From assembly GCA_007376135.1 (NCBI GenBank), contig VMFR01000003.1:75660-139659 (forward strand): DNA of 64,000 bases, written 5' to 3'. Both the position numbers and the translations under genes were made by a program. This DNA is from Parcubacteria group bacterium Gr01-1014_31 (GTDB taxonomy: Bacteria; Patescibacteriota; Patescibacteriia; Buchananbacterales; GWA2-38-13). Below the pieces are notes generated by a model that was given only the letters and a program-made list of their open reading frames with translations, was not told the DNA's origin and made no database searches. Numbering within the stretch: position 1 is the stretch's first letter; each line of letters starts with the position of its first letter. Positions 24,460-63,521 of the stretch are shown in pieces.

Positions 24460-24580
24460 CGTATGGTCGTGCCGTGTCCTTTCCTTATTTTTTACGATGG
24501 GCTGCCGCCGCGGCCCATCGTTTTTTTATGGTATACTGTGACGGTATCCCGTTGGGGCGGGGGTAATAATTTTTTTCAGT

Positions 24581-27261: not shown

Positions 27262-27304
27262 TTACTACCGACTACTTTCCTACCAACCTACCTCACTCAC
27301 GTTT

Positions 27305-28099
27305 ATGTTCTGGCAAGAACACGCCCTTCCCGCAGTCGCGCTCCAGCTCGGTTCCGTCACCATCTATTGGTACGGCGTGACTATGGTACTGGCCATCGCC
27401 GTCGGCGTGATGGTCGCAAGGAACCTGGCCCAACGCACCGGGTTGGCACAACCCCAGGCCGTGTACGACCTGGCATTTGTGGTGGCACTCTCGGCGCTGG
27501 CGGGCGCTCGGCTGTACGCCGTGCTGTTATTCTGGCCCGACTACGCCGCCGACCCCTGGGAAATTTTCAAAGTCTGGCATGGCGGCTTGGCTATCCACGG
27601 GGCGCTGGCGGCCGGAGCGCTGGCGCTTCTGGTCTACTGCCGGCGCAAGCGGTATTCGTTCTGGGCGTGGGCGGATATCCTCGCGGTCGCCCTTCCCGCC
27701 GGGCAGGCCATCGGCCGTTGGGGCAACTACTTCAACCAGGAGCTGTTCGGCCCGCCCACCTCGCTGCCGTGGGGGATATTTATTGACCCCACATACCGGC
27801 CAGCCGGGTTCGAACAGGCAGTGGTGTTCCATCCGGTCTTTCTCTATGAATCACTCTTGAATTTGGCGTTATTCCTTATGCTGTGGCGGCTCTTCCGGCA
27901 TCGGCGGCAGGTGGGCGTCATGGTTGCCGCCTATGTGACTGGGTACGGTATTATCCGTTTGCTGATGGAGCAGCTGCGGTTGGACCCCACGCCGGAATTG
28001 TTCGGCATCCGCTGGCCGATCGTGGTCAGCGCGCTGCTCATCGTCGGCGGGTTGGTGGGGCTGGCCGGCCGGCAGCGGCGGCCCGCGGCCGGGGCGTGA
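27305..28099 (+). CDS. lgt: prolipoprotein diacylglyceryl transferase
   Basis: Lgt signature GRWGNYFNQELFG and conserved TM topology. Confidence 0.92.
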   Translation: MFWQEHALPAVALQLGSVTIYWYGVTMVLAIAVGVMVARNLAQRTGLAQPQAVYDLAFVVALSALAGARLYAVLLFWPDYAADPWEIFKVWHGGLAIHGALAAGALALLVYCRRKRYSFWAWADILAVALPAGQAIGRWGNYFNQELFGPPTSLPWGIFIDPTYRPAGFEQAVVFHPVFLYESLLNLALFLMLWRLFRHRRQVGVMVAAYVTGYGIIRLLMEQLRLDPTPELFGIRWPIVVSALLIVGGLVGLAGRQRRPAAGA

Positions 28100-28139
28100 C
28101 GTTTTCCGCCTGCTGGCTGCGTGCTATACTGGAGGACGT

Positions 28140-28568
28140 ATGCGGTATCGGAAATTTTTGGTCACGGGGGGCCTGCTGGCCGTTGCCGTGCTGGCGGTCG
28201 CCTTGCCCCTGGTCGTTTTGGCGCAGGCAACCCAGCCGGTGACCCTGCCTAACCCCATCCAGATCAACGACCCGCGCCAGCTCATCGGGCGGGTCATCAG
28301 CGCCGTCCTGGGGCTGGTCGGTTCCATTGCGCTGGTCATCTTCATGTGGGGAGGGTTCCAGTGGATGACCTCGGCGGGGAATGCCGAAAAGGTCACCAAA
28401 GGAAAAAATGCCATTCTTTGGGCAGCGCTGGGTTTGGCGGTCATCTTTTCCAGCTACGCCCTGGTGCGGTACGCGCTCAATGCGTTGAAACCGCAGGCAG
28501 AACCGAGCCAGGGTGTGCCGGGCACCGGAACCGGGGTGCCAGGTACCGGAACTGCGGTGCCGCCGTAG
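28140..28568 (+). CDS. TrbC/VirB2-like (T4SS-pilin-like) small secreted membrane protein
   Basis: Signal peptide, hydrophobic hairpin with FMWGGFQWMTSAGNAEKVTKGKNAILWAALG motif, GTG-rich tail; GGAGGA RBS. Confidence 0.5.
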   Translation: MRYRKFLVTGGLLAVAVLAVALPLVVLAQATQPVTLPNPIQINDPRQLIGRVISAVLGLVGSIALVIFMWGGFQWMTSAGNAEKVTKGKNAILWAALGLAVIFSSYALVRYALNALKPQAEPSQGVPGTGTGVPGTGTAVPP

Positions 28569-28646
28569 GGGTCGCGGGAAGCGGGAGGACGTACAGGGGA
28601 GTAAAATTTTGGTCTTATGAAGGCCATTTTTTGTTCTGTAATTATC

Positions 28647-28675
28647 TTGACAAATGACTAATCTTATGGTATCAT
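28647..28675 (+). promoter_or_regulatory. sigma70-like promoter (TTGACA-17-TATCAT) of the four-gene operon
   Basis: Lies in a 280-bp AT-rich gap; a second TTGACA occurs at about 28722. Confidence 0.45.
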
Positions 28676-28847
28676 AAATTGTTGCATCAATTAGCCACTT
28701 TTTGGCTTATTGGTGCGGTCCCTTGACAATTCAAGGCGAAAAGCAAAAGAGGCGCCTCGGTGGCCCTCCTTTTCACGTTGATTTGTCTAGGTGTGTGTCT
28801 TAGGTGATTCGGAATTCAAAGGATTCAGTGTAAAGGAGGATGCCATC

Positions 28848-29756
28848 ATGGCAGACAGAAACAGAGACAGAGATCGAGGCGGCAGGGGTGGAGGCGGCGG
28901 CGGAAAGCAAAGCCCATCCACCATCTGCACGTACTGCGGTGCGCGCTACATGATCCAGGATGGGTGCAAGCACAAGGACGACCGTGCAACGCACGGCGAC
29001 GGTGCGCCCGTTCGGTTCCGCGAGTGCATGGCGTGCCACGGACAAGCGCCGAACAACGGCGTTTGTCTCAACTGCCAGCAGAACCCGGGCAAGGGCGGCA
29101 AGCAGCCCAGCTGCCCGGCCTGCAACAATCCGCTGCCGGCCAGCGAGACCAAGTGTCGCTGCGGCTGGGAGTCGGGAATGTGGCAGTGCAAGGACTGCCA
29201 CCTGTGGTGGAAGTCCGACCAGGTCGAGTGCCTCAAGTGCCTCAAAGCGGCGGAGAAAGAGCACAAACGTGCGTGCACCTTCGTCACCTGCCCGACCTGC
29301 CGCCGGCCCTACAAGGCCGAGAATAAGTGGTGCGACCACTGCAACGTCAAGTGCGACCTGTGCCAGAAATGGTACCCGAAGGACCTGACGAAGTGCCCGT
29401 TCTGTGACAAGCCCGTGACGTACGATCTGAAAGTGCTGGTCGATGAGGACGCAACGAACCGGCGGCACGAGCTGCTGGTGACGTTCCTCAAGACGGTCGG
29501 CACCAAGCCGCCGCAAGGCGTCGCGGCCACGGTTCGGGTGCTCGACCCGGCGGTACCAACACCGCCGGGGGGAGAGCCCATCGAGCCTGGTGGTACGGTC
29601 GTTCATGCACCGTACCGCGAGGACGATCGGAAGGTTCGCATCGTTCTGGTCAACTGCGCTGACGGAAACGTCGGCACCTTCACAACGGAGGCCGTGTTGA
29701 CCGGGCGGCGCACGAAGTTCCGCTGGCCGAGTTACCCTCGCGATCCGGCGCGGTGA
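28848..29756 (+). CDS. multi-zinc-ribbon protein (10 or more CxxC pairs) with an RGG-rich N-terminus and an uncharacterised C-terminal domain
   Basis: AAGGAGG RBS 8 nt upstream. MADRNRDRDRGGRGGGGGG, then repeated CxxC pairs (CTYC, CMAC, CLNC, CPAC, CKDC, CLKC, CPTC, CDHC, CDLC, CPFC), then a C-terminal region of about 110 aa. Confidence 0.6.
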   Translation: MADRNRDRDRGGRGGGGGGKQSPSTICTYCGARYMIQDGCKHKDDRATHGDGAPVRFRECMACHGQAPNNGVCLNCQQNPGKGGKQPSCPACNNPLPASETKCRCGWESGMWQCKDCHLWWKSDQVECLKCLKAAEKEHKRACTFVTCPTCRRPYKAENKWCDHCNVKCDLCQKWYPKDLTKCPFCDKPVTYDLKVLVDEDATNRRHELLVTFLKTVGTKPPQGVAATVRVLDPAVPTPPGGEPIEPGGTVVHAPYREDDRKVRIVLVNCADGNVGTFTTEAVLTGRRTKFRWPSYPRDPAR

Positions 29757-29788
29757 ACCATCAACCATCAACCGACAAGGAGTGTGAC

Positions 29789-30928
29789 ATGGAAGTTCTC
29801 GTTAAGGCCTTCATCCTGCTCCCTATCCTGGGAGTATGTCTGGTCGGTAACTACTGGCTGGGCAAGTGGCGCTTCCACGGCTTTCGTGGGGTGCGGGGCG
29901 CGAGCGATCGCGACTACCGGCGCAGCGTCTCCAGCATCGTGCCGCTGATCGCCGCCGTCGTTTCGGCGTTCATTTTCTTCGGCGACCATACCGACAGCTA
30001 TCGGATGGTGCCGGTGTGGTTTCTCGGCATCTGGGGGACGCTGCTGGTCGTTGTTAACGGCTGGTACGCCATCGCCCTGTGGCGAGAATCGCTCTGCGAG
30101 CCCGCCAACCTGCTTCTTCTCGGCTTCTACCATCTCGGTGGATTCTGGGGGAACTGGCGGTCGGGAAAGGACAATGAATCCCGGCCTGGTACCCAGCACA
30201 ACGGTTGGGCTTGGGCGGCGTTGTCTTTCTGGTTGCTGCTGTCCTTATCGTTCTGGACCCATGGCTCGCCGCTCCAATTCGAAGGGGCGGATGCATGGGA
30301 CCTGGCGGCCAATGCTAAGGCGACCGTGGTGAACACGGTTCGTGGCAGCGGCATTCCGGAGGCAGTGGCATCGGCTAAGGACTACGGCCAAAAGGTCGTT
30401 GCCGACGGCAACGAAAGGTACGCCGGCACGCCGCTGGGGAAAGCATTGGGCTGGCTCGCAACGCCAGCCGCGCCTGTCCCAGTGGTACCGGCAACTACCC
30501 CGGCTCCGCTGCTCCCATTGTTCCCGCGCAGCTATTCGTGGCTGATCGTCTGGGTTGCGGGTACTCTCTGGGCGTCCTTCGCCAACATCTACTGCCGACG
30601 CGACGAGGCCGAACGCTTCGTCCGTTGGATTGGTACATTCTTTGCGGCCATCATCGGACGCAAGAAGGCGTTGCCGGTAACCCAGGCCGCCGGCACGACC
30701 GTCGTCGGTGCACCCGCGGCGACAACCGCTGCGGCACCTCCGGCCGACGAACGGCATGGGTCCAAGGCGGAAGGTGGCAAGGACCAGCGGCATGCCCCTC
30801 CTACATTCTTGCAACGAACGGCTGAAGAAGCCGCCGCTGAGGTCGTCGTTCGCCAGGGCGGACGGTGGGTCGAGCAACTGGTCGAAGGGGCCTCCCGCCT
30901 GCTGCGTGGCCGGCGGAAGCATACGTAA
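29789..30928 (+). CDS. polytopic membrane protein (about 7 TM), uncharacterised
   Basis: AAGGAG RBS before MEVLVKAF (alternative GTG at 29753 overlaps the upstream stop as GTGA); 5 N-terminal TM helices, a soluble loop of about 90 aa, 2 more TM helices and an Ala/Thr/Pro-rich tail. Confidence 0.55.
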   Translation: MEVLVKAFILLPILGVCLVGNYWLGKWRFHGFRGVRGASDRDYRRSVSSIVPLIAAVVSAFIFFGDHTDSYRMVPVWFLGIWGTLLVVVNGWYAIALWRESLCEPANLLLLGFYHLGGFWGNWRSGKDNESRPGTQHNGWAWAALSFWLLLSLSFWTHGSPLQFEGADAWDLAANAKATVVNTVRGSGIPEAVASAKDYGQKVVADGNERYAGTPLGKALGWLATPAAPVPVVPATTPAPLLPLFPRSYSWLIVWVAGTLWASFANIYCRRDEAERFVRWIGTFFAAIIGRKKALPVTQAAGTTVVGAPAATTAAAPPADERHGSKAEGGKDQRHAPPTFLQRTAEEAAAEVVVRQGGRWVEQLVEGASRLLRGRRKHT

Positions 30929-30960
30929 CCAACAACCAACACAGAACCAAGGAGTTCATC

Positions 30961-32193
30961 ATGATTCAGAAGCTTCGGGAGTTCGGACAACTGTTTCAGG
31001 AGTTTGGCTGGACGTTCGGCGGCTTTTTGTTCGCCGCCATGGCCAGCCTCGCGTTCGGATCCTTCCTCTTCGGGTTCAGCGGGATGCTGATGATCATCGT
31101 GATCATCGCGGTCGCCACCGTGCTGCTGTCCAAGGGCAAGGACCTGTTCGTCCGTCCGGCGAAGTTCGCCGGGGTCGCGCTCGTCGCCCTCGCCGCGTTC
31201 CTGGCGTCGTGGGTGGTCGTGACCGAGATCTTCACGGACGTGGCGAAAACCACCATCGGCGGCGTGGTCAGTGTCGTCTTGGCGTTGCTGGTGGCGTTCC
31301 GTTACGCCGGCAGCGCGCGCAAGAACGCGTACCACACGCTGGCGCTGTTGGCGTGCGGCGGCTACTTGACGCTGGCCGGTATTGGTCAGTGGGGGCTGAC
31401 GCCGGCGCAACGCGCAGGCGGCGAAACCCGCTCGCGCTACGTTCTGCGGTCGCTCTACGATTGGTGGAACAGCCATAAGGATACGGTGGCCATCAGCGTC
31501 GGCCGTTCGGCGGATGAAACCCGTTTGGCAGCTCGGATGCTGGATGAGGTGACCGTGCATACCCCCGGTCTGACGTCGGATTTCAAAGACGACCATGGGG
31601 TGACCATCACCGCGTACCGCATCCATGAAGGCGACGTGCTGCTGCGCTTTCCCGGCGAAGACGTAAAAACGTTCGACGGGGAAGACTACGTCAAGGTGAA
31701 GGTGGATGGTGATCCGCCCATCCTTGGTTGGTTCAAGTTCCGCACCTGGCACAAGAACCTCGCCAAGAAGGTTGTCACCCCCAGCTCCTCGACGTCGGCG
31801 CCATCGCCGGTAGCGGCAACCAGCACGCCGATCGTGCGACCCGCCACCGTCGTTGCACCGACGCTTCCTCTCGTACCCGCTCTTGCACCGTCCGTCTTGG
31901 ATGAGGAAACGGTGGTCGCGAATAAGGACCACTGGACCATCACCAAGGTGCCGGTGAAACTGCAGGAGCACGTGTGGATCGGGCCGTTCCCTTCGGAAGG
32001 GGACGGCAAACGGCTGGTCGTCTGTATCGACGGCGGCCAACCGGTCACCATCCAGCCGTACCTGTGGCCGAACGGAAAGTACGGCGCGCGCATCCATCGG
32101 ATGAGCGGCGACCAGGCCACACAGTACCTGTGGGTGCGAGTGAGCGACGGCGCTCCTCTCACCATCAGGCTCAACAAGAACCGTCCCTACTGA
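30961..32193 (+). CDS. membrane-anchored protein (4-5 N-terminal TM) with a soluble C-terminal domain of about 250 aa, uncharacterised
   Basis: AAGGAG RBS before MIQKLREF; Ser/Pro/Thr/Ala-rich linker; C-terminal domain ends ...WVRVSDGAPLTIRLNKNRPY. Confidence 0.55.
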   Translation: MIQKLREFGQLFQEFGWTFGGFLFAAMASLAFGSFLFGFSGMLMIIVIIAVATVLLSKGKDLFVRPAKFAGVALVALAAFLASWVVVTEIFTDVAKTTIGGVVSVVLALLVAFRYAGSARKNAYHTLALLACGGYLTLAGIGQWGLTPAQRAGGETRSRYVLRSLYDWWNSHKDTVAISVGRSADETRLAARMLDEVTVHTPGLTSDFKDDHGVTITAYRIHEGDVLLRFPGEDVKTFDGEDYVKVKVDGDPPILGWFKFRTWHKNLAKKVVTPSSSTSAPSPVAATSTPIVRPATVVAPTLPLVPALAPSVLDEETVVANKDHWTITKVPVKLQEHVWIGPFPSEGDGKRLVVCIDGGQPVTIQPYLWPNGKYGARIHRMSGDQATQYLWVRVSDGAPLTIRLNKNRPY

Positions 32194-32205
32194 AAGGAGT
32201 CCAAC

Positions 32206-33687
32206 GTGTCGAAAAACAGATCCGATCGAGAGCGGCAGGAGCGCCTGACCGCTCTCAAGAAGCTGTTCCAGCGCGTCGCGCCCGCCGGCATCCCCGGCGA
32301 GCGCTACGGCACCAACCGCAAGCTGGGGGAGCTTGTTCAGGAGCTGGGCCTTACCGTCGAGCTGCTGGACGCCCCCGATTTGCCCTCCGAGGCGAAGTTG
32401 TGCGAGCTCCTCGCGACGCCCGCGCAGCCCGCCCCTGCAGCCGCCGGTGCGGACCTCCCGGTGCCCGAACCGTCGGCTGCCGACTTCGCGCCGATTGACC
32501 TGCTGGTGGATCAGCCGGAGCCGTCCGTCTCCGAAACCGTTCCCGGGGCGGTTCCCGATGAACCGTTCCAACCGGCGCCGGCCGAGGCTCGAATTGAGCC
32601 GAATCCGGACCGGTCCGACGTTCCCGAGCCGTCCGTGCCGCAAGGTACGGGCGGCTCGGACACCTCCGACACTCGCCCCGAGCCCGACCTTGCGGCTATC
32701 CTGGAGGAATTCAGCGAGGCCGACGGCGGCGAGCCGGAGGCCGACGATGCGTACGGCGACCGCGACCTGTTGGGTGAAGCGTTCGAAGGCGGCGGTGAAG
32801 ACGGGGAGGATGAAGAGTCCCTCCGGCTTGATCCGCCGCCCCGACTGCTCGTCCAACCCGTTCGCGCGGCCCTCACGTCGCGCCAGAAGCTGGTCATCGC
32901 GATCGGCTCCGCGGCGGCGCTGGTGTTCGTGTCCGTTTCGTTGACCGTGCTGTTCATCAAGAGCCGCCAGCCCGCGCTGGCCGTTGATCCGGCGGTTGTC
33001 GCGACGCTGCGCAGCGAGAATGCGAAGCTTCGAACGGCCACCAGTGACGCAACGGCCAAATCGGATGCTGCCGAGCAGCAGCGGAAGGCGGCCCACATGC
33101 AAGTGTTGGCTGCCGAACAATTGGCGCAGGAGGCACTGGCCGGACAGATTGCGGCGCTCGAGCGCGAAACCAAAGCGCGTGAAGAGCGCGAGAAGGAAGA
33201 TGAAGATCGCGCGCGGGCTACCCATGCCAGCCGTACCTTCAAAAGCCTTCGCGACCTGAGCGATGAGGACGCCGAGCGTTTGGCGCAGATGTCCGGCCTG
33301 GATAAAGACCAGGTCAAGGCTTCAACGCCCGATATGCTCGATGCCCAGCGTCGCATCCGCGAGCTCCAGAAGCAGCTCAAGCAGCGGCCGAAGCTTTCGG
33401 CGCCCGGCACAGCTGCTCCCACCGCACCTTCCGTATCGCCGCCACCACCGAAGGCGGAAGCCGGTGGCGACCGTACCGTGAACGTCGGGATTGCTGTCGA
33501 TTTCGACGGCGCTGCCTCAACGGGAAACATCCAGGAGTACCGTTGGCGGTTCGGCGATGGCGATGAGGCCACGGGCAAGACCGTGGCCCATACCTACGCC
33601 ACCAGCTCAATGTTCACGGTCACTTTGACCGTTACGGACGACCGGGGCCAAACGGCCCAGGATTCGTTCACCGTAACGGTGAAGTGA
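32206..33687 (+). CDS. bitopic protein: cytoplasmic N-terminal domain plus acidic/Pro-rich disordered region, single TM, coiled coil, C-terminal PKD domain
   Basis: AAAGGAG RBS and GTG start; TM at about residues 225-247 (LVIAIGSAAALVFVSVSLTVLFI); heptad-like Ala/Glu/Gln/Lys/Arg-rich segment; C-terminal YRWRFGDGDEATGKTVAHTYATSSMFTVTLTVTDDRGQ (PKD-type). Confidence 0.6.
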   Translation: MSKNRSDRERQERLTALKKLFQRVAPAGIPGERYGTNRKLGELVQELGLTVELLDAPDLPSEAKLCELLATPAQPAPAAAGADLPVPEPSAADFAPIDLLVDQPEPSVSETVPGAVPDEPFQPAPAEARIEPNPDRSDVPEPSVPQGTGGSDTSDTRPEPDLAAILEEFSEADGGEPEADDAYGDRDLLGEAFEGGGEDGEDEESLRLDPPPRLLVQPVRAALTSRQKLVIAIGSAAALVFVSVSLTVLFIKSRQPALAVDPAVVATLRSENAKLRTATSDATAKSDAAEQQRKAAHMQVLAAEQLAQEALAGQIAALERETKAREEREKEDEDRARATHASRTFKSLRDLSDEDAERLAQMSGLDKDQVKASTPDMLDAQRRIRELQKQLKQRPKLSAPGTAAPTAPSVSPPPPKAEAGGDRTVNVGIAVDFDGAASTGNIQEYRWRFGDGDEATGKTVAHTYATSSMFTVTLTVTDDRGQTAQDSFTVTVK

Positions 33688-33748
33688 TGTCGTTCCTTCC
33701 GGGTGGCCAGCGCTACGGATAACCGTGGCCCCGGCCCCCTCCCACCTT

Positions 33749-33786
33749 GAAGGCGGTTGAGCCCAGCTCTCCGCCTTCTTTTTTTA
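33749..33786 (+). terminator. intrinsic terminator closing the four-gene operon
   Basis: gaaggcggttgagcccagctctccgccttc hairpin plus tttttttta. Confidence 0.7.
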
Positions 33787-33811
33787 TGCCTGGCAACGGT
33801 ATACTGACCCT

Positions 33812-36266: not shown

Positions 36267-37523
36267 TCATTCCGGAATGTAGACGGTGGTTGGCGGCGAC
36301 GCGGGGATGCTGATAGTCTTGCGGTAGCCGACCCGGTCGTGCGCATTATCCGTAGTACCCCACATCGCGCCGGACGCAATGGTGGACTCGCCGTACTTAT
36401 CGTTGAGCCGGTCGGCAGCCGCCGCCAGGAGTTTTGGCTTGAGGATGTCATCAAACAGCGACTGCTGCCCGGATGTTGGCTGCAGGTCCGTCACGCTGAC
36501 GGCAAGTTGGGTGGCCGCATCGGGCAGGGGACGGGAGAACAACAGCGCGTTGGCAGCACGCAGGATATCCGGCGTCGTGAAGAGCGGTTCCGCTGCCCGC
36601 TTGCTGCCGCCCCGGCCGTGGCCGTGCTGCAGACCGCAGTAGGCAAATATCCCCCGCGCTTCCAGGTTCTGGCTGCGCAGCCGCCGGCCGGTGCGTTCGC
36701 ACAGTTTCGCGAGTATCGGCCGCAGGTAGGCGGGGTCGTCGGTGCGCTTCGGCAGGCAGTAGGAATGACCGATGGATTTCGGCGCGGCCGGCGTTGTCGC
36801 CACATCGGAAAGTTCTACGCCGTTGACGTTCGCCCATAGGTAGTACCCGGGCTTGCCTAGGCAGGCGATCAAATTGGCCACCGGGTAGCGGCGCAGGTCA
36901 TTGAGCGTGGCAATGCCCAGCCGCCACAGCCGCCAGGCGGTCTTGTGTTTGATGCCCCAGGCATCGGTGATGCGGACGCGAGAAAATATTGCCGCCACAG
37001 TATCGGGGGTGACCATCAGGACGCCGCCCTTGGGCGCCACATCGGAACCGAATTTCGCCAAAAATCGCGTGGAGCTGACGCCGACGGAGCATTGCAGCCA
37101 GTCGCCGACCTCGGTTTTGATGCGCCGTTGGATTTGGCGCGCCAGCAGCTCGGCCTGGGGGAGCTCGCGCACCCAGCCGGTCATGTCCAAAAATGCTTCA
37201 TCGATGCTGTAGGGTTCCACGCGGTCGGTATACTGCGCGAGGATGGAAAATATTTTTTCCGTCGTGCTGCGGTATTTGGATGGTTCATTTTGGACCAGGA
37301 TGATGCCGGGGTAGATCTTTTTGGCGTCACTGATGCGCATGCCGGTTTTGACCCCGACCTTCTTGGCCTCCATGGAGGACGCGATGATGCAGCCGTTGCC
37401 GTTCTTGGTTTTTGGCAGGTACGCGCACACGCCCAGCGGTTTGCCGCGCAGGAAAGGATTGGCCTGCTGCTCCACAGAGGCAAAGTAGCTATTCATATCG
37501 ATATGCAGTATCACTTTTTGCAT
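36267..37523 (-). CDS. dinB: DNA polymerase IV (Y-family)
   Basis: MQKVILHIDMNSYFASVEQ N-terminus and conserved palm/finger motifs; C-terminal extension of about 60 aa. Confidence 0.9.
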   Translation of the reverse strand: MQKVILHIDMNSYFASVEQQANPFLRGKPLGVCAYLPKTKNGNGCIIASSMEAKKVGVKTGMRISDAKKIYPGIILVQNEPSKYRSTTEKIFSILAQYTDRVEPYSIDEAFLDMTGWVRELPQAELLARQIQRRIKTEVGDWLQCSVGVSSTRFLAKFGSDVAPKGGVLMVTPDTVAAIFSRVRITDAWGIKHKTAWRLWRLGIATLNDLRRYPVANLIACLGKPGYYLWANVNGVELSDVATTPAAPKSIGHSYCLPKRTDDPAYLRPILAKLCERTGRRLRSQNLEARGIFAYCGLQHGHGRGGSKRAAEPLFTTPDILRAANALLFSRPLPDAATQLAVSVTDLQPTSGQQSLFDDILKPKLLAAAADRLNDKYGESTIASGAMWGTTDNAHDRVGYRKTISIPASPPTTVYIPE

Positions 37524-37617
37524 ATCATGGAGAGTTCATTTCTACACTTTTTTGGAAAGGGCGGGTTCGAGGGGGTATGGGCCACCTCACGTATAAAGTT
37601 ATGTCTAGTGCGAGAAT

Positions 37618-38430
37618 TTAATTAGGATTGGGCTTCACGTGACTTTTGATAAGAATTTTTACTACTGCTTCAAGTTTTAGTGTCTCTACATCTTGATTAA
37701 ATTGACCATGGGGAATCTTTGGGATTACGGCATTGGGAATATTGCCGTGCGCTGTTGGGTTACCCCACTTCAAAATTATTTTTATGAAATCATCTTCGGT
37801 GATAGTCCCCCGCGCTTCTGGCGAGAGGGCTCTATACATGTTCGCTGCTTTTGTTCTCCCGCCACGGTTTAGTGATGTAATAATTTCGATAATACGTATA
37901 TAGCCTAAGAACCTCCAGCCAAGTTCGTTATATAAATCCGTCGCCGATCTCCACAGATAAAAGACATCCTCGTATTTTTTGTATATGTCGAAGGACGGTA
38001 AGTTTTCTACCAATTTACAATTTGTTCGATGGAAAATGATACCACCCGAAACGCTGGATTGTCCGCCCATGAGCAAAGGCCTCTTCCGTCTATCAAGATT
38101 TAACGTAAAAGTGGCATCGTCATAGACTTGGAAAAAATCGTAGTTTGATAAAAAGAATGGAACTTGGAATATCCCCGCCAAATAAGCAGTAATCTTATTA
38201 AGCTTTTCTAATGAGTGATGATAAGCGAGGTAGGGGTCCGTATCCTGAATGCGAATAATTAATGAGATTATATTAGTGCCATCTCTCTCGAAGTGATTAT
38301 CTAATGTCATTACAGAATTTTCATTAATCCATAGAATGTAATCGTCAGAAGATAAGACTTTTTTGAGTCTTATCCCTGACGCTATAGAGGTGTACTCTAC
38401 GTAAAATTTTTTAGTATTTCCTTCTTCCAT
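37618..38430 (-). CDS. hypothetical protein encoded in a low-GC islet
   Basis: About 36% GC against the 63% background. The ORF extends to 38514, but composition breaks at about 38440, so the start is more likely at MEEGNTKK. No recognisable domain. Confidence 0.5.
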   Translation of the reverse strand: MEEGNTKKFYVEYTSIASGIRLKKVLSSDDYILWINENSVMTLDNHFERDGTNIISLIIRIQDTDPYLAYHHSLEKLNKITAYLAGIFQVPFFLSNYDFFQVYDDATFTLNLDRRKRPLLMGGQSSVSGGIIFHRTNCKLVENLPSFDIYKKYEDVFYLWRSATDLYNELGWRFLGYIRIIEIITSLNRGGRTKAANMYRALSPEARGTITEDDFIKIILKWGNPTAHGNIPNAVIPKIPHGQFNQDVETLKLEAVVKILIKSHVKPNPN

Positions 38431-38840
38431 ACTTTTGGTACTAAGATGTAACCCAATGCGCCCATTGGAGAAATTTAGGCAGCATTGCGCCGTGAGGAGG
38501 AGCGTTCCCGCCACGGGAAATTTCGCGACTGTCTGAGGGCGCCCCCGGGGCGGCCGAGTTAGCGAAATTAGCCGACGAGGAACGGCTCAATGCTCTAAAT
38601 TTGGACACGGGGCGCGACTTTGGCGGTACCTTCGCGCCTACAGCACCTTAACTTGGTTCATCTTCGTCGCTTTTGCGGTGGCCGGGTTCTTGGGGCTGGT
38701 CGGCATCACTACACTGGTGGCATCCGCAGGTCGGTAGATTTTCAGACGGAAAGTTTGTCGTGCCGAAGCGCCTGGCGGATGCCGGGCGCTTTTGGATGTG
38801 TCTCAACATCCTTGGTCTCTCTGCGGGAAGGAGAATTATT

Positions 38841-38870
38841 CCCCCTTACGAAGGAGGGGTGAGGGGAGGT
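38841..38870 (+). repeat. GC-rich hairpin repeat, copy 1 (cccccttacgaaggaggggtgaggggaggt)
   Basis: About 90% identical to copy 3 and inverted relative to copy 2; brackets the DUF559 gene. Confidence 0.6.
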
Positions 38871-39226
38871 GACGGGAGATGGCGGACGATACTATCCAGC
38901 ACGGCATCGCGGTTGTGGTAGATGTCCGTGTTTGTGAAACGAAGCACGGTCATGCCCAGCGACTGGAGATACGCTTGTCGTCGAACGTCGTAGGTGACCG
39001 CGGATGGCGTGACGTGTGAGTCGCCATCAATTTCAATTGCTACGTGCGTCCGCGGGCAGTAGAAATCAACGATGAAAGGGCCGATGCTGACCTGACGACG
39101 GAATTTATAGCCGTTGAGATGTTTGCCGCGCAGGTAATACCACAGTAGAAGTTCGGCGAATGGCATACGGTTTCGCAGTCCGCGCCGCCGTGTTCGTTGT
39201 TCGGTTTGATTGAAAATTTTGGTCAT
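38846..39226 (-). CDS. DUF559 (Vsr/MutH-like endonuclease fold) domain protein
   Basis: FRRQVSIGPFIVDFYC...VAIEIDGDSH...VLRFTN motif series typical of DUF559. Confidence 0.75.
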   Translation of the reverse strand: MTKIFNQTEQRTRRRGLRNRMPFAELLLWYYLRGKHLNGYKFRRQVSIGPFIVDFYCPRTHVAIEIDGDSHVTPSAVTYDVRRQAYLQSLGMTVLRFTNTDIYHNRDAVLDSIVRHLPSPPLTPPS

Positions 39227-39275
39227 CGTTTTACGTCTTTTAACCCCCAGGATACAACGTATCCACCCCCTCTAG

Positions 39276-39296
39276 CTCCCCCTTCGTAAGGGGGAG
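39276..39296 (+). repeat. GC-rich hairpin repeat, copy 2 (inverted palindromic form: ctccccctt-cgt-aagggggag)
   Basis: Shares a core with copies 1 and 3. Confidence 0.5.
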
Positions 39297-39338
39297 AATA
39301 TTTCGCAAGGGGAGGAACTTTTTATATCGTCAGTTCTT

Positions 39339-39370
39339 CCCCTCCTTACGAAGGAGGGGGTAGGGGAGGT
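39339..39370 (+). repeat. GC-rich hairpin repeat, copy 3 (cccctccttacgaaggagggggtaggggaggt)
   Basis: Contains the cccctcctt-acg-aaggagggg hairpin; ends at the stop of the adjacent minus-strand ORF. Confidence 0.6.
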
Positions 39371-39666
39371 TATCCGGTGGCATACCATTCGCTCAACCGC
39401 CACGATAGCCGGCGGGTGGAAAAGGCCAGTTTGAAATAGTTGGCGGCGTCGGAAACGTTGAAGTAGTAGATGATATCCTCGCCGTCGCGTTCGCGGTGCA
39501 CCAGGTTGAGTTTCTCGACCTGATATTTTTTTCCGCGCCAGCGAAAAACGAGCGGCATGACTTTGTTGCCGGCAATACGGGGTTTTACGACCGGCCGGTC
39601 AACACAGGCCAAGACCGGAGAAAAGCTGGCCAGGACCTCGATGGGCTCATCAATTACTTCTTGCAT
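39370..39666 (-). CDS. hypothetical protein
   Basis: 98-aa ORF, no recognisable domain. Confidence 0.35.
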   Translation of the reverse strand: MQEVIDEPIEVLASFSPVLACVDRPVVKPRIAGNKVMPLVFRWRGKKYQVEKLNLVHRERDGEDIIYYFNVSDAANYFKLAFSTRRLSWRLSEWYATG

Positions 39667-39873
39667 AGCAGGATGGTGGTAGCAAATTTATCATGCCGGC
39701 GATTTCCTTGATTCTTACTTCCTGCTTCTTGATTCTTCCGTTAGACGCACCAGCAGGGGAGCGTGCGGTTGCGGGCAAAGATCCGCCGCAGGCGCTTGTG
39801 CTGCATGTAGTCAAAGCAGTAGCGCCAGAGCAGTTTGTTGATGGCTTTTGCCATAGATAATTAATGTTACGTG

Positions 39874-40497
39874 TTAGGTGGTTTGGAATTTTCTGATGAT
39901 GCCCCGCACCACGCCCTGGATCAGGGGGTCTTTGGCGTAGATGGGCTGCATCGCGGCGTTGGCCGGCTGTAGCCGGATGCGGTTTTGCTCGCGGTAGAAT
40001 TTTTTTAACGTGGCGTAGGCGTTGTCCAGCAGTGCCACCACCACGTCGCCGTTCTTGGGACTCGGATTGCGCTGCACGATGACTAGGTCGCCGTCCAATA
40101 TCCCTTCATTCACCATGGACTGTCCGCGGACCTTCAGCACGTAGGTGTTGGCAGGGTCGGCGACCAGGTCGGCGGGCACGGCGATGGCCTCGTTGCTGTC
40201 GGCCGCTGCGTCGGTGTCGATGGGTTTACCGGCGGTGATGAGGCCGGCGAGCGGCACTAGCACGGCCCTGGAGATATTCAGCGCGGCGTTGATGGGCTGC
40301 AGTGCGCCACCGCGGCCGCCTGGCAGCTTGAGGTAGCCCTTGGCTTCCAGGGTAGCCAGGTGCTCGGCCACGGTGGCCTTCGACCGCAGTTTGAAATTTT
40401 TAGCGATCTCCTCGTAGGTGGGGGAGTACCCCTCGCCTTGGAGAGTGCCCAGAACGTATTTCAGGATGGCCGATTGTTTTTTGGTAAGCGATTTCAT
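39874..40497 (-). CDS. lexA: LexA repressor
   Basis: Start placed at MKSLTKKQSAILKYV (wHTH), Ala-Gly cleavage site region, S24 peptidase Ser/Lys motifs (GQSM, KRVIGV-like); the upstream 160 codons of the ORF are not LexA-like. Confidence 0.9.
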   Translation of the reverse strand: MKSLTKKQSAILKYVLGTLQGEGYSPTYEEIAKNFKLRSKATVAEHLATLEAKGYLKLPGGRGGALQPINAALNISRAVLVPLAGLITAGKPIDTDAAADSNEAIAVPADLVADPANTYVLKVRGQSMVNEGILDGDLVIVQRNPSPKNGDVVVALLDNAYATLKKFYREQNRIRLQPANAAMQPIYAKDPLIQGVVRGIIRKFQTT

Positions 40498-40530
40498 GTG
40501 CTTTAGGTTACGTGTTCCATAACGATAACC

Positions 40531-40545
40531 GAACAAAAACCGAAC
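40531..40545 (-). promoter_or_regulatory. candidate SOS box (GTTC-N7-GTTC direct repeat on the lexA strand)
   Basis: GAACaaaaaccGAAC on the plus strand, 34-48 nt upstream of the lexA ATG; resembles the alphaproteobacterial-type LexA box. Confidence 0.35.
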
Positions 40546-40599
40546 GTCAAGTGGATAACTATAATTGCAAACCATTCGCAATAGTCGTATGGTGACGGT

Positions 40600-40989
40600 A
40601 TGAGTGAGTATCTCGCGCGGGTCCGTCAGGCTGGCTGCCGTCTCACCAAAGCACGGCGGGCGGTCATCGCGTACCTGCAGGCGCATGATGAGCCGCAGAC
40701 CGCCGCAACGGTTCACCGGGGCCTGCGGGGGATGCGGACCGACCTGGCGTCGGTGTACCGGACGCTGGAGCTGCTGGAGCGGCTCGGGGTGGTGAGCCGA
40801 GAATCGGACGGCAAGACCGCTGCCTACGCGCTTGCCGACCACCATCACCATCATATCGTCTGCCGCGGCTGCCATCGTAAAACGTGCCTGCCCTGCGCGC
40901 TGCGCCTGCCCTCGCCGCGCGGGTTTTCCGCCGTCCAGCACCAGGTCGTGCTGACGGGTGTGTGCGCCAGTTGCGCACAATCGTCGTAA
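40600..40989 (+). CDS. Fur-family transcriptional regulator (Zur-like)
   Basis: N-terminal wHTH, HHHHH and CRGC motifs, C-terminal CxxC; located upstream of metal ABC transporter genes. Confidence 0.8.
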   Translation: MSEYLARVRQAGCRLTKARRAVIAYLQAHDEPQTAATVHRGLRGMRTDLASVYRTLELLERLGVVSRESDGKTAAYALADHHHHHIVCRGCHRKTCLPCALRLPSPRGFSAVQHQVVLTGVCASCAQSS

Positions 40990-60752: not shown

Positions 60753-60826
60753 TGGGGTGGGGAGGAGGTGAGAGAATTAAGTTTTTTAGTTTAATATTGC
60801 AGATTAGGCTTCACCGAAATCCTCCC

Positions 60827-61606
60827 TTAGAATGGGCATTTTGTGAACCAGTGCGGAATATCTTTAGTACTACTAAGATAGTAACCAATTACTTTTTTGC
60901 TGATAATAGCCGGGTTATCTTTTTTAACAGCAAAAACTAACTCATTCCATAAATATTTTTCAGTTGGCTGCCAATTTTTTGGGTAGAAGTCTTTTGATTT
61001 AAAGTGTATAAGATTATCTCTAGTGTTTTTTAACCAAATGTATTTTTGCCATATTTCCTTAGTTTTTATACTTTCTACATTATATATTTCAGAAAGAATG
61101 GCCCCCAATTTTTCATCGAGTGTTACGTTCCTTTCAATGAAATGCTTATCATGAATTTCAGTTCCCTCCCTTCTCTCTTTTGAATATTTATAATCATCGG
61201 GCAATGATTGATTCGCGAAATGTTCAATTGCAGAATATGCGAAAATATAGCCTTGCATTAATTTTTCTATGGCATCGAATAGTTTTCCAGTTTTTTCTAT
61301 GGGTACAGTTAAATGTGTACTTTCCCCGCTGAACGTATAGGGATTATGTGCGTTGAGTAAATTTTCACCTTCTTGCCATGATTTATAAGATACATTTAAC
61401 ATCATCGCGGTTATACTTGGTATAGGAAAACTAATAATTATCGACTCAAGGCCGTACCCCATGTTGCTAAGTCCGGCCACCACTACTGTTTCCTCATCTT
61501 TGTCCCCCCTGCGTTCTTCGGGGAATAATTTTTTTGGAAGCTTGCCAAAGTTGTATGTTCTCCAATCAAACTGCTCAGAGTCTTCTACTATATTTGTGCT
61601 ATCCAT
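60827..61606 (-). CDS. hypothetical protein encoded in a low-GC islet
   Basis: About 36% GC; no recognisable domain (an RDNLIH Rx4H motif near the C-terminus is not significant). Confidence 0.5.
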   Translation of the reverse strand: MDSTNIVEDSEQFDWRTYNFGKLPKKLFPEERRGDKDEETVVVAGLSNMGYGLESIIISFPIPSITAMMLNVSYKSWQEGENLLNAHNPYTFSGESTHLTVPIEKTGKLFDAIEKLMQGYIFAYSAIEHFANQSLPDDYKYSKERREGTEIHDKHFIERNVTLDEKLGAILSEIYNVESIKTKEIWQKYIWLKNTRDNLIHFKSKDFYPKNWQPTEKYLWNELVFAVKKDNPAIISKKVIGYYLSSTKDIPHWFTKCPF

Positions 61607-61754
61607 ATATTCTTTGACAACTCATTATGATGTTTAAGTCAGCGTTTGTTAGTTATCTGCGATCACGTCTTCGCCAGTGAAATCTAACCAGTTAGTCAAC
61701 CCTTTATTGTAATGCTGTACTGTAATAGATTACTCCTCACATGAGCTAATCGCA

Positions 61755-61821
61755 AACCAAAAAACCCGTTGCCACCACTCCAGCGGACTGGGGCATTAGC
61801 AACGGATACGGAATTTCGTGG
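61755..61821 (+). repeat. 67-bp direct repeat, left copy
   Basis: About 85% identical to 63551-63617; contains the ccgttgc...gcaacgg inverted repeat; also acts as a minus-strand terminator (hairpin plus ttttttgg). Confidence 0.65.
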
Positions 61822-61970
61822 AATTAGGGTCGAAGAAAGGGTCTAATTTCTGGGCTCTTGGGCGCCGTTTAGATGTCTTAGAATATCTTCTAATTGTGTT
61901 TGTTAATTAGTATAGAAAAGAAACCTTATTTTAAGCCAAATTACCCCCCTCTTCTAATTTCTTCTAATTC

Positions 61971-63410: not shown

Positions 63411-63521
63411 ACACTGTTATATACTATAACAAAATTGTAGTTATTGCCCTAGGGATAGGATGCTGACAGCAAACGGGCAGGACCTCTCCTCCGCGTTATG
63501 CTCCGGAGGGGCAGGCGGGAT

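What the first reader, a model, noticed from the sequence alone, without database searches (positions are those of the whole stretch)
28647..33786. Four-gene operon of uncharacterised envelope proteins: multi-zinc-ribbon protein, two polytopic membrane proteins and a TM/coiled-coil/PKD protein
The unit is self-contained. It has its own TTGACA-17-TATCAT promoter in an AT-rich gap and a strong hairpin-U terminator. Every gene has an AAGGAG-class RBS, and spacings are tight: a GTGA overlap or 32 nt, then 32 nt, then 12 nt.

Gene 1 has an RGG-rich N-terminus followed by at least ten CxxC pairs, which makes about five Zn ribbons, plus a C-terminal domain of about 110 aa with no recognisable relative. 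Gene 2 is a 7-TM protein. Gene 3 has 4-5 TM helices plus an extracytoplasmic domain of about 250 aa. Gene 4 has a cytoplasmic acidic/Pro-rich disordered region, one TM, a coiled coil and an extracellular PKD domain.

No catalytic domain is recognisable in any of the four. The architecture suggests a cytoplasm-to-surface signalling or assembly machine. It sits directly downstream of a T4SS-pilin-like gene, which could hint at a surface appendage or uptake role. I cannot map it to any named system.
Basis: partly seen in the sequence, partly recalled or inferred. Interest (0 to 1): 0.75.

Follow-up and report, generated by a model that had tools for sequence, protein, structure and literature searches.

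The report
Pilin-linked orphan envelope operon in Parcubacteria
This is a real, conserved operon of four envelope proteins with no known relatives, always found next to a secretion-type pilin gene in a few groundwater ultra-small (CPR) bacteria; it probably builds a surface contact structure, but its function is still inferred.

Summary
Four co-directional genes lie between a near-consensus sigma-70 promoter and a strong hairpin-U7 terminator: g1 28848-29756, g2 29789-30928, g3 30961-32193, g4 32206-33687. All four have AAGGAG ribosome-binding sites, and the gaps are 32, 32 and 12 nt.

The source is the MAG 'Parcubacteria group bacterium Gr01-1014_31' (CPR).

Apart from the PKD domain of g4, nothing matches Pfam, NCBIfam, PHROGs, PADLOC or PDB.

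The adjacency is not chance. Six other diverged loci (proteins 25-49% identical) keep the order g1-g2-g3 followed by a bitopic fourth gene. All four informative lineages also keep a VirB2-like T4SS_pilin gene immediately upstream. The functional unit is therefore pilin plus four genes.

The family is extremely rare: g3 has 8 relatives among 1.84 billion representative proteins. No VirB4 or other T4SS gene lies within the 64 kb window.

Surface domains behave as exchangeable cassettes, and a conserved structured 5' leader RNA, absent from Rfam, precedes g1.

Best reading, at about 0.4 confidence: a lineage-specific trans-envelope complex coupled to the pilin that displays binding domains for cell or host contact. 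Function is inferred, not shown.

The parts
28140..28568 (+). VirB2/TrbC-like pilin gene (142 aa). It has a signal peptide, two TM helices and a Gly/Pro/Thr-rich tail. It is the conserved upstream partner of the operon and lies 40 nt after lgt.
   Evidence: It matches Pfam T4SS_pilin at E = 2.8e-12, TrbC at E = 1e-5, and the NCBIfam Mbov_0395 pilin-like model at E = 1.7e-8. Homologues lie immediately upstream of g1 in L004, L006/L007 and L014. At 52-71% identity it is the most conserved protein of the set.
28610..28632 (+). Weak terminator-like hairpin plus T-run after the pilin gene
   Evidence: Listed by the terminator scan. Its free energy is only -6.9 kcal/mol with z = -1.5, so it is weak.
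28647..28675 (+). Sigma-70-type promoter: TTGACA, 17 nt, TG-extended TATCAT
   Evidence: It matches 11 of 12 consensus positions. The -35 box and the TG-extended -10 box are conserved in L004, L006 and L014. In a 97.7%-identical strain, homology starts at 28643, 4 nt before the -35 box, with an IS element upstream.
28682..28847 (+). Conserved structured 5' leader of about 166 nt. It forms hairpin P1 (28682-28718) and a long hairpin P2 (28725-28787) whose inner stem GAGGCGCC/GGCCCUC is followed by UUUU.
   Evidence: Identity normalised to the longer sequence is 63-80% for the leader against 45-61% for the coding sequences of g1-g3. RNAalifold predicts 37 pairs, 7 of them with compensatory changes. 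In this structure 89% of cells pair, against 32-49% when partners are slid, and the covariation score is 0.224 against at most 0.138. The minimum free energy of the window leader is -61 kcal/mol with z = -4.1, and P2 alone gives -28.4 kcal/mol with z = -4.5. There is no Rfam match, even at E <= 10.
28848..29756 (+). g1: a soluble, presumably cytoplasmic protein of 302 aa. It has an Arg/Gly-rich tail, 5-6 zinc ribbons and a conserved C-terminal beta-rich domain of about 110 aa.
   Evidence: It has ten CxxC motifs and 25 Cys. No TM segment was found. Homologues occupy the same position in L004, L005, L006, L008 and L014, with 2 to about 6 ribbons. No Pfam, NCBIfam or PDB match passes threshold. 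The AF2 model is unusable, with pLDDT 33.
29789..30928 (+). g2: a polytopic membrane protein of 379 aa with about 5-6 TM segments. Conserved motifs are GGFWGNW, YPRSxSWFW and FANLxCRRD. It has a cytoplasmic tail of about 110 aa.
   Evidence: Homologues are present in 6 other loci. No Pfam family is shared by any of the 7 members at E <= 10. There is no PDB match. NCBI annotates it as a hypothetical protein, G01um101431_900.
30961..32193 (+). g3: a 410-aa protein with five N-terminal TM helices. Outside the membrane it has a long helix, a small beta domain, a Pro/Thr/Ala/Ser linker and a C-terminal beta-sandwich (residues 311-410).
32206..33687 (+). g4: a bitopic protein of 493 aa with a GTG start. 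It has a conserved N-terminal domain of about 70 aa, an acidic Pro-rich linker, a TM helix (233-251), a charged helical stalk, a Pro-rich linker and a PKD domain (414-492).
   Evidence: PKD_4 matches at E = 4.8e-21. The full-length homologue in L004 is 45% identical. The fourth gene of other loci has the same bitopic, helical, Pro-rich design but carries fn3 or no Ig-like domain.
33749..33785 (+). Intrinsic terminator: an 8-bp GC-rich outer stem with an inner stem-loop, followed by U7
   Evidence: The sequence is. The free energy is -20.1 kcal/mol with z = -5.45, and none of 200 shuffles folds as well.

Best explanation
The locus is a lineage-restricted module made of a VirB2-like pilin gene plus four operon genes, found in a small clade of groundwater Parcubacteria (CPR).

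Proposed working model:
- g2 and the five-helix N-terminal part of g3 form a membrane-embedded core.
- g4 is a bitopic stalk that holds a PKD (Ig-like) domain away from the membrane.
- g3 projects a lectin-like beta-sandwich on a Pro/Thr-rich linker.
- g1, a soluble multi-zinc-ribbon protein, docks on the cytoplasmic face as an adaptor or regulator.
- The complex acts together with the VirB2-like pilin encoded just upstream. It presents exchangeable binding domains at the cell surface for contact with a host cell or substrate.
- Expression comes from a conserved sigma-70 promoter through a conserved structured 5' leader.

Shown here: gene reality, operon signals, conserved order, linkage to the pilin, the domain content, mosaic evolution of the ectodomains, and the conserved leader structure.

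Inferred: complex formation, topology (from the positive-inside rule and one natural fusion protein), the binding role, and any functional coupling to the pilin.
For: **Conserved synteny**
- The gene order recurs in L003, L004, L005, L006/L007, L008 and L014.
- Homology is supported for g1 (up to 139.7 bits), g2 (up to 89.8 bits) and g3, at only 25-49% identity.
- The pilin gene is immediately upstream of g1 in all four other lineages with upstream sequence. Its identity to the window pilin is 52-71%.
- The pilin-to-g1 intergenic distance is 229-303 nt in the other loci and 279 nt in the window. Gaps inside the operon are 10-38 nt.

**Selection and coding**
- GC3 is 0.73-0.82.
- Against a 97.7%-identical strain, g1 has 5 synonymous and 5 non-synonymous differences, giving pN/pS of about 0.3. 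These are small counts.

**Topology and surface exposure**
- g3 has five TM helices, and its basic loops face the cytoplasm.
- PKD (E = 4.8e-21) is typically an extracellular domain.
- P0004 in L014 fuses a TM-plus-motif N-terminus to the g3 C-terminal domain. The N-terminus is homologous to the L014 fourth gene (E = 2.5e-9). The C-terminal domain is 83% identical to the window's.
- This fusion places both ectodomains in the same compartment.

**Cassette-like ectodomains**
- Between the window and L004, the g3 C-terminal domain is 82% identical in protein with dS 0.64. The g4 PKD domain is 83% identical with dS 0.33.
- The remaining regions of g3 and g4 are 27-42% identical, except the g4 N-terminal domain at 59% with dS 0.71. 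Their dS ranges from 0.9 to above 2.
- Other loci replace PKD with fn3 or with nothing, and carry a different g3 C-terminal domain.

**Fold of the g3 C-terminal domain**

**Background from the literature**
- VirB2-like pilins are widespread in Patescibacteria, and in many genomes they are not encoded near virB4 (PMC12102498).
- They are essential in the one species tested genetically (PMC10633639).
Against: - There is no experimental or expression data.
- No protein-protein interaction was modelled. The AF2 model of g1 failed, with pLDDT 33. g2 was not modelled. Only the C-terminal domain of g3 is confident.
- The lectin similarity is at fold level only. Identity is 10%, and Foldseek against PDB gives a best E-value of 0.04.
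- The pilin has its own weak terminator and the operon has its own promoter.
- In a closely related strain, an IS element separates g1 from whatever lies upstream, and g1 and the start of g2, the only operon genes on those contigs, remain intact. Co-transcription with the pilin is therefore not required.
- Homology of the fourth gene across all loci is not established. It holds only for the window versus L004, and for L003, L014 and P0004 among themselves.
- The lower dS of the cassettes rests on 83-110 codons.
Confidence: 0.4

Rival explanations
1. The module is a highly diverged pilus-biogenesis or T4SS sub-assembly. g2 and/or g3 would be functional analogues of VirB6/CedA-type polytopic platform proteins. 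g4 would resemble VirB8 or VirB10, being bitopic with a Pro-rich region and a coiled coil. Together they would polymerise or anchor the VirB2-like pilin, using a VirB4 ATPase encoded elsewhere in the genome.
For: - The module is strictly adjacent to a VirB2-like pilin in every informative lineage.
- The protein architectures parallel VirB6 and VirB10 in outline.
- In Patescibacteria, pilin genes lay away from virB4 in about 40% of pilin-containing assemblies (PMC12102498).
Against: - No Pfam or NCBIfam T4SS model matches any of the 7 g2 or 8 g3 family members, even at E <= 10. This includes TrbL/VirB6 and the VirB8 and VirB10 models.
- No VirB4, VirB6 or coupling protein is encoded in the 64 kb window.
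- The module is far rarer than the patescibacterial T4SS. It occurs at one locus among 185,579 species-representative genomes.
Confidence: 0.25
2. The module is a trans-envelope sensor. Extracellular domains (the g3 beta-sandwich and the g4 PKD) would bind a ligand. The signal would pass through the membrane core to g1, whose zinc ribbons and Arg/Gly-rich tail bind nucleic acid. One possible target is the operon's own structured leader, giving autoregulation.
For: - g1 combines zinc ribbons with an RGG-like tail, both typical of nucleic-acid binders.
- Its zinc-ribbon region weakly resembles an archaeal zinc-ribbon RNA-binding protein (E = 0.011).
- A conserved structured leader lies directly upstream of g1.
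- No enzyme or ATPase is encoded in the operon.
Against: - The RGG tail is not conserved in the homologues L004, L006, L008 and L014.
- The number of ribbons varies from 2 to about 6.
- No DNA- or RNA-binding domain, sigma or anti-sigma domain, or kinase domain was detected.
- The PDB match is not significant.
Confidence: 0.15
3. The genes are cargo or a remnant of a mobile element such as a prophage, an integrative element or a filamentous-phage-like unit. The pilin-like protein would be a coat protein, and the membrane proteins would serve morphogenesis or exclusion.
For: - The distribution is very patchy and rare.
- All four genes have strong SD sequences, while lgt, the PMT gene and the PEP synthase gene do not.
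- An IS element abuts the promoter in a sister strain.
- Ectodomain cassettes appear to be exchanged between loci.
Against: - There are no hits in PHROGs, in IMG/VR, or in the phage and plasmid collections.
- No integrase, replication gene or ATPase is adjacent.
- The same chromosomal context, lgt followed by the pilin, occurs in two diverged lineages, the window and L014. This argues for vertical inheritance.
- GC and GC3 equal those of the surrounding genome.
Confidence: 0.05
4. The four ORFs are unrelated hypothetical genes adjacent by chance, or are not real genes. One alternative would be that the 878-aa antisense ORF at 30589-33225 is the true gene.
For: A very long antisense ORF spans g2 to g4.
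Against: - Plus-strand homologues keep the same order in six other loci.
- The PKD domain on the plus strand matches at E = 4.8e-21.
- The RBS, promoter and terminator are all on the plus strand.
- The antisense product is Arg/Gly/Leu/Ala-rich, as expected of a shadow frame in GC-rich DNA.
Confidence: 0.01

Closest known systems
Patescibacterial / monoderm-type (MPF-FATA-like) type IV secretion system with VirB2-like pilins (PMC12102498; PMC10633639)
   Same: A VirB2/TrbC-like pilin gene (PF18895) is part of the conserved unit. The partners are polytopic and bitopic membrane proteins. The host is a CPR bacterium. In this phylum, pilin genes are often encoded away from virB4.
   Different: No VirB4, VirB6, VirB3, VirB8 or coupling protein lies in or near the locus. 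None of g1-g4 matches any T4SS profile. The module is orders of magnitude rarer than the patescibacterial T4SS.
Archaeal Ced/Ted DNA-import systems (VirB2-like pilin, polytopic VirB6-like CedA/TedA, VirB4-like ATPase); recalled from my own knowledge, not tested here
   Same: They are minimal sets that pair a VirB2-like pilin with polytopic membrane proteins.
   Different: Ced and Ted include a VirB4-family ATPase. No ATPase is present here and no sequence similarity was detected.
Pam pilus of CPR bacteria (bioRxiv 10.64898/2026.03.03.709456)
   Same: It is a CPR-specific surface appendage system with Ig-like domains.
   Different: Pam pilins are Ig-fold subunits assembled by donor-strand exchange with chaperone-like factors, and occur mainly in Saccharimonadia and Microgenomatia. 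The only similarity here is a sub-threshold PamR hit on the PKD domain (E = 0.11, 11 bits against a cut-off of 300).
PKD/fn3-bearing bacterial surface adhesins and small beta-sandwich lectins (LecA/PA-IL, EclA)
   Different: Here the domains are anchored by polytopic or bitopic membrane segments within a four-protein operon. There is no sequence similarity to lectins and no sugar-binding residues were checked.

Membership tests
Type IV secretion system (VirB/Trb, including monoderm MPF-FATA) | VirB4-family ATPase encoded in or near the cluster | tested here: not met
   A Pfam scan of 37 ORFs across the 64 kb window, including all the largest ones, found no VirB4/CagE/TrbE, AAA_10 or coupling-protein domain. 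The rest of the genome could not be examined.
Type IV secretion system (VirB/Trb, including monoderm MPF-FATA) | VirB2/TrbC-like pilin | tested here: met
   PF18895 matches at E = 2.8e-12, above its cut-off. PF04956 matches at E = 1e-5.
Type IV secretion system (VirB/Trb, including monoderm MPF-FATA) | VirB6/TrbL-type polytopic channel protein and VirB8- or VirB10-type bitopic proteins, recognisable by profile | tested here: not met
   No such Pfam or NCBIfam hit exists for g2, g3 or g4, or for any of the 7 g2 and 8 g3 family members at E <= 10. CONJScan profiles were not available.
PKD-domain proteins | Match to the PKD/PKD_4 profile above the gathering score | tested here: met
   g4 residues 414-492 match PKD_4 at 75 bits (cut-off 27) and PKD at 45.6 bits (cut-off 23.5).
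Zinc-ribbon proteins | Paired CxxC...CxxC knuckles | tested here: met
   g1 has ten CxxC motifs plus one CxC, arranged as 5-6 pairs. Pfam ribbon models are sub-threshold (UPF0547, E = 0.02). Metal binding was not tested.
Pam pilus system of CPR | Match to the PamA, PamB or PamR family models | tested here: not met
   The only hit is NF058578 PamR at E = 0.11 and 11.4 bits, against a cut-off of 300, on 26 residues of the PKD domain.
Multihaem cytochrome c (the NCBI product name of g4: 'lipoprotein cytochrome c, 27 heme-binding site') | CxxCH haem-binding motifs and a lipobox Cys | tested here: not met
   g4 contains one Cys and no CxxCH motif. The database name is wrong.
Known cis-regulatory RNA families (Rfam 15) | Covariance-model match for the 5' leader | tested here: not met
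   There is no match at gathering scores over the whole window, and none at E <= 10 on 28560-28870.
Phage or defence-system protein families | Match to PHROGs or PADLOC models, or to phage or plasmid records | tested here: not met
   PHROGs and PADLOC gave no hits for g1-g4 or the pilin. The g2 family alignment found nothing in IMG/VR. tblastn found no match for g2 and g3 in the phage collection, or for g1 and g2 in the plasmid collection.

The most novel reading that the evidence does not exclude
The five genes encode a previously undescribed envelope machine that lacks its own ATPase. It would insert, anchor or polymerise a VirB2-like pilin independently of a canonical T4SS. It would carry horizontally exchangeable receptor-binding cassettes that set host or partner specificity in an episymbiotic CPR lineage. 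Its expression would be gated by a new structured leader RNA, possibly bound by the multi-zinc-ribbon protein g1.
Probability: 0.15. Interest if true: 0.8.

Novelty: new variant of a known kind. Interest (0 to 1): 0.55.

Why it matters
CPR/Patescibacteria are thought to live attached to other cells. VirB2-like pilins are among their few conserved, and where tested essential, envelope components. How these pilins are used is still unknown.

This locus gives a compact candidate partner set for such a pilin: four proteins from families with no annotation, plus a conserved regulatory leader. Its surface domains look like swappable specificity cassettes.

If the model holds, it would offer a handle on host recognition in Parcubacteria. 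It would also be an example of a pilin working outside a recognisable T4SS.

If it does not hold, the module remains a well-delimited, conserved gene set of unknown function, and the three protein families and one RNA motif are still worth registering.

Tried and rejected
**Family and sequence searches that found nothing**
- I searched Pfam, NCBIfam, PHROGs and PADLOC with all four proteins. Only the PKD domain matched.
- I scanned every family member of g2 and g3 against Pfam at E <= 10. No family was shared.
- Profile searches of PDB sequences for the g1, g2 and g3 families found nothing significant.
- Word-indexed homology searches for g1, for the g2 alignment and for the g1 alignment recovered only the window's own proteins and the L008 proteins.

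**Collection scans**
- The scan of GTDB species-representative genomes found one locus, identical to L006.
- JGI metagenomes and IMG/VR gave none.
- A DNA pattern for the leader produced more than 120 hits in metagenomes and 8 in IMG/VR. nhmmer and tblastn showed all of them to be chance matches.

**Structure work**
The model had pLDDT 33 and was unusable.
- AF2 on g3 gave a confident model only for the C-terminal domain.
- The afdb50 library was unavailable.

**Other tests**
- hhalign of the g2 family against the g3 family shows they are unrelated.
- An HMM of the 'LSWxxLxDxNxKRxxxxHGI' motif from L003, L014 and P0004 did not detect the window's g4. That resemblance is by eye only.
- I considered and rejected the antisense 878-aa ORF as a gene, a second promoter at the internal TTGACA (no -10 box), and a leader peptide.

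Full report
**1. What is at the coordinates**

The region 28647-33786 contains four plus-strand ORFs:
- g1, 28848-29756, 302 aa
- g2, 29789-30928, 379 aa
- g3, 30961-32193, 410 aa
- g4, 32206-33687, 493 aa, with a GTG start

An independent gene caller gives the same boundaries on two public contigs identical to the window. GC3 is 0.73-0.82, as in neighbouring housekeeping genes. Each start is preceded by AAGGAG(G). The gaps are 32, 32 and 12 nt.

The promoter scan finds TTGACA-17-TATCAT, TG-extended, at 28647-28675, matching 11 of 12 positions. It lies in an AT-rich gap with GC 0.44 overall and 0.32 at the core, against 0.64 in the operon.

The terminator at 33749-33785 folds at -20.1 kcal/mol (z = -5.45) and ends in U7.

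For g2 I see about five clear TM segments plus one or two amphipathic ones, not a demonstrated seven.

**2. Source and surroundings**

g2 is identical to 'hypothetical protein G01um101431_900' of the MAG 'Parcubacteria group bacterium Gr01-1014_31', on a 159.7-kb contig. NCBI names the pilin 'Uncharacterized protein' and g1 and g3 'hypothetical protein'. It names g4 'lipoprotein cytochrome c, 27 heme-binding site'. That name is wrong, because g4 has one Cys and no CxxCH motif.

The window is ordinary chromosome. Its genes include PNPase, a Mg-chelatase-like ATPase, a Cu-ATPase, MurA/EPSP-like, an M23/LysM peptidase, RmuC, GroEL, PEP synthase, Lgt, a PMT_2 glycosyltransferase, PBP, DinB and LexA.

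No VirB4, VirB6, coupling protein, integrase or phage gene lies in the 64 kb.

Directly upstream of the operon, 40 nt after lgt, is a 142-aa protein that matches T4SS_pilin (PF18895, E = 2.8e-12) and TrbC/VirB2.

**3. The proteins**

- **g1.** It has no TM segment. It starts with RDRDRGGRGGGGGG and carries ten CxxC motifs plus one CxC (25 Cys), which makes 5-6 zinc ribbons. A conserved beta-rich C-terminal domain of about 110 aa follows.
- **g2.** It is polytopic, with family motifs GGFWGNW, YPRSxSWFW and FANLxCRRD, and has a long C-terminal tail.
- **g3.** It has five N-terminal helices. The basic loops (SKGKDLFVRPAK and FRYAGSARKNAYH) put the N-terminus inside the cell and residues from about 146 to 410 outside.
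- **g4.** It has a conserved N-terminal domain of about 70 aa and an acidic Pro-rich segment (37 D/E and 26 P in 155 residues). Then come one TM helix and a charged helical segment. In the best heptad register, 56% of a/d positions are hydrophobic, against 37% overall. A Pro-rich linker and a PKD domain (E = 4.8e-21) follow.

Nothing else matches Pfam, NCBIfam, PHROGs, PADLOC or PDB sequences.

**4. Is the adjacency conserved?**

Yes. An exhaustive HMMER search with g3 against 1.84 billion representative proteins found only 8 proteins at E <= 0.001, one of which is the window's own g3 at 99% identity. Looking up where the other hits are encoded gave six independent loci:

| Locus | Gene products in order (aa) |
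|---|---|
| L004 | pilin fragment, 248, 347, 342, 504 with PKD |
| L006/L007 | pilin, 252, 339, 581, 518-528 with fn3 |
| L014 | Lgt, pilin, 256, 306, 477, 348, 261 |
| L005 | >=103, 340, 454, 328 |
| L008 | 197, 344, 452 |
| L003 | >=296, 424, 289 |

phmmer confirms that the flanking genes are homologues of g1, g2 and g3. g1 scores up to 139.7 bits and g2 up to 89.8 bits.

Identities to the window proteins are as follows:

| Protein | Identity to window |
|---|---|
| pilin | 52-71% |
| g1 | 37-42% |
| g2 | 26-36% |
| g3 | 25-49% |
| g4 | 45% (L004 only) |

In every lineage with sequence upstream of g1 (L004, L006/L007, L014 and the window), the pilin gene comes first. The spacer is 229-303 nt. 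The conserved unit is therefore pilin plus four genes.

The fourth gene is homologous only between the window and L004, and separately among L003, L014 and P0004. Elsewhere it keeps the same design (bitopic, helical, Pro-rich) with a different ectodomain or none.

**5. Rarity**

- A scan of 185,579 species-representative genomes found one locus. It is the L006 contig, a 5.7-kb piece labelled Planctomycetales that is probably mis-binned.
- JGI metagenomes and IMG/VR gave none.
- tblastn found nothing in the phage collection for g2 and g3, or in the plasmid collection for g1 and g2.
- The other hits come from Logan, ENA and JGI (L018) metagenome assemblies. At least one of these is labelled groundwater.

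**6. Mosaic ectodomains**

Between the window and L004, the g3 C-terminal domain is 82% identical with dN 0.11 and dS 0.64. The g4 PKD domain is 83% identical with dN 0.08 and dS 0.33.

Most other segments of the same genes are 27-42% identical with dS of 0.9 to above 2. The exception is the g4 N-terminal domain, at 59% identity and dS 0.71.

P0004 in L014 joins a TM-plus-motif N-terminus of the fourth-gene type to a g3-type C-terminal domain. That domain is 83% identical to the window's and 88% identical to L004's, with dS 0.35 against L004. L014's own g3 carries a divergent C-terminal domain.

Low dN together with lower dS suggests two things: purifying selection on these domains, and more recent exchange of them between loci. 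This is typical of surface specificity modules. The regions are short, so the evidence is suggestive only.

**7. A conserved structured leader (not in the original finding)**

The pilin-g1 spacer is better conserved at the DNA level than the coding sequences. Identity normalised to the longer sequence is 63-80% for the leader and 45-61% for g1-g3. The -35 box and the TG-extended -10 box are conserved.

Downstream, two structures are predicted: a 5'-proximal hairpin (28682-28718) and a long hairpin (28725-28787). The inner stem of the long hairpin, GAGGCGCC...GGCCCUC, is followed by UUUU.

Support for the structure:
- RNAalifold predicts 37 pairs, 7 with compensatory changes.
- For that structure, 89.3% of cells pair, against 32-49% when partners are slid. 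The covariation score is 0.224, against at most 0.138.
- The window leader folds at -61 kcal/mol (z = -4.1).
- L006 is weaker (z = -2.0) and L014 is not distinguishable from shuffles (z = -0.7).

The alignment has only four independent sequences, so this is promising but not proven. There is no Rfam match.

The CCCUCCUUUU strand is complementary to the SD region AAAGGAGG in the window and L004, but not in L006. A switch that sequesters the SD is therefore only a possibility.

**8. Strain variation**

Contigs from a 97.7%-identical population (L010-L013) match the window only from 28643 onward, 4 nt before the -35 box. Upstream they carry an rve-family transposase gene and a PLDc_2 gene.

The promoter, leader, g1 and the start of g2 stay intact in that strain. 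In g1, synonymous and non-synonymous differences are 5 and 5, giving pN/pS of about 0.3. The operon is thus transcriptionally autonomous from the pilin gene.

**9. Interpretation**

The evidence establishes a conserved, lineage-restricted envelope module genetically coupled to a VirB2-like pilin. It has a cytoplasmic zinc-ribbon component, two polytopic proteins, and outward-facing binding-type domains that vary like cassettes.

- **Best model (about 0.4).** A trans-envelope complex presents these domains for cell or host contact and works with the pilin.
- **Closest rival (about 0.25).** A very diverged pilin-assembly or T4SS sub-complex uses a VirB4 encoded elsewhere. Architecture and pilin linkage favour it. 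The lack of any profile similarity and the absence of T4SS genes in 64 kb count against it.
- **Sensor or regulator reading (about 0.15).** This rests on the nucleic-acid-binder look of g1 and on the leader. However, the RGG tail is not conserved.
- **Mobile-element origin (about 0.05).** The vertical lgt-pilin context and the lack of phage or plasmid matches disfavour it.
- **Chance adjacency.** This is refuted.

Literature context: VirB2-like pilins are widespread in Patescibacteria and lay away from virB4 in about 40% of pilin-containing assemblies (PMC12102498). They were essential in Southlakia epibionticum (PMC10633639). The recently described Pam pilus is a different system.

**10. Verdict**

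The operon is real, conserved and unannotated, and it belongs to no named system. I rate its novelty as a new variant of a known kind, namely pilin-associated envelope apparatus built from unrelated, unclassified components. There is a minority chance that it is categorically new.

Interest is moderate at 0.55. A CPR specialist would want to see it because of the strict pilin linkage, the cassette-like ectodomains and the new leader RNA. Lineage-specific hypothetical operons are common in CPR genomes, however, and no function has been demonstrated.

Noticed in passing
window 28682-28847 (also L004 229-399, L006 430-577, L014 1848-1994): A conserved structured 5' leader lies upstream of g1. It is more conserved than the flanking coding sequences. 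It has two hairpins with compensatory changes and an inner GC stem followed by UUUU, which could act as an attenuator or switch. It is absent from Rfam.
   Followed up: yes
L010 1-3693, L011, L012, L013 versus window 28643: In a 97.7%-identical strain, homology to the window begins exactly 4 nt before the -35 box. Upstream are an rve-family IS transposase gene and a PLDc_2 gene instead of the pilin and lgt. This is an IS-associated rearrangement at the operon boundary.
   Followed up: partly
L014 6517-7302 (P0004): A natural fusion protein joins an N-terminal TM-plus-motif region of the fourth-gene type to a g3-type C-terminal beta-sandwich, 83-88% identical to those of the window and L004. 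The ectodomain cassettes (g3 C-terminal domain and g4 PKD) have much lower dN and dS than the rest of their genes.
   Followed up: partly
window 30589-33225 (-): An 878-aa antisense ORF spans g2, g3 and g4 without a stop codon. Its product is Arg/Gly/Leu/Ala-rich, and it is most likely a shadow frame of GC3-rich genes rather than a gene.
   Followed up: partly
window 32206-33687: The NCBI product name for g4, 'lipoprotein cytochrome c, 27 heme-binding site', is a mis-annotation. The protein has one Cys, no CxxCH motif and no lipobox.
   Followed up: yes
L006/L009 (CAYNXT010000109.1): The only copy of the module in the GTDB species-representative set is a 5.7-kb contig in a MAG labelled 'uncultured Planctomycetales bacterium'. 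Its 71%-identical pilin and shared leader suggest it is a mis-binned Parcubacteria contig.
   Followed up: no
window 27305-28568 and L014 492-1765: lgt and the pilin gene are separated by 40-41 nt in both the window and L014. This is a conserved tight lgt-pilin pair, although the pilin has no lipobox.
   Followed up: no
window 27280-27304, 33787-33811, 24556-24580 versus the operon starts: lgt, the PMT_2 glycosyltransferase gene and the PEP synthase gene lack an obvious Shine-Dalgarno sequence. The PMT gene has TATACT only 6 nt before its ATG, so its mRNA may be leaderless. All four operon genes carry AAGGAG.
   Followed up: no
window 37600-39900 and 60800-63500: These are low-GC islands (0.38-0.53, against 0.60 for the window). 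The first holds a 298-aa ORF with no Pfam match. L001 has a 96-bp insertion relative to the window at 38632/38633. The second holds a Schlafen AlbA_2/HATPase_c_4 gene. Both may be acquired DNA.
   Followed up: no
window 36267-37523 (-) and 39874-40980 (-): A DinB (IMS) gene and a LexA homologue with an N-terminal extension of about 160 aa lie close together downstream of the operon. This may be an SOS-type pair in a CPR genome.
   Followed up: no
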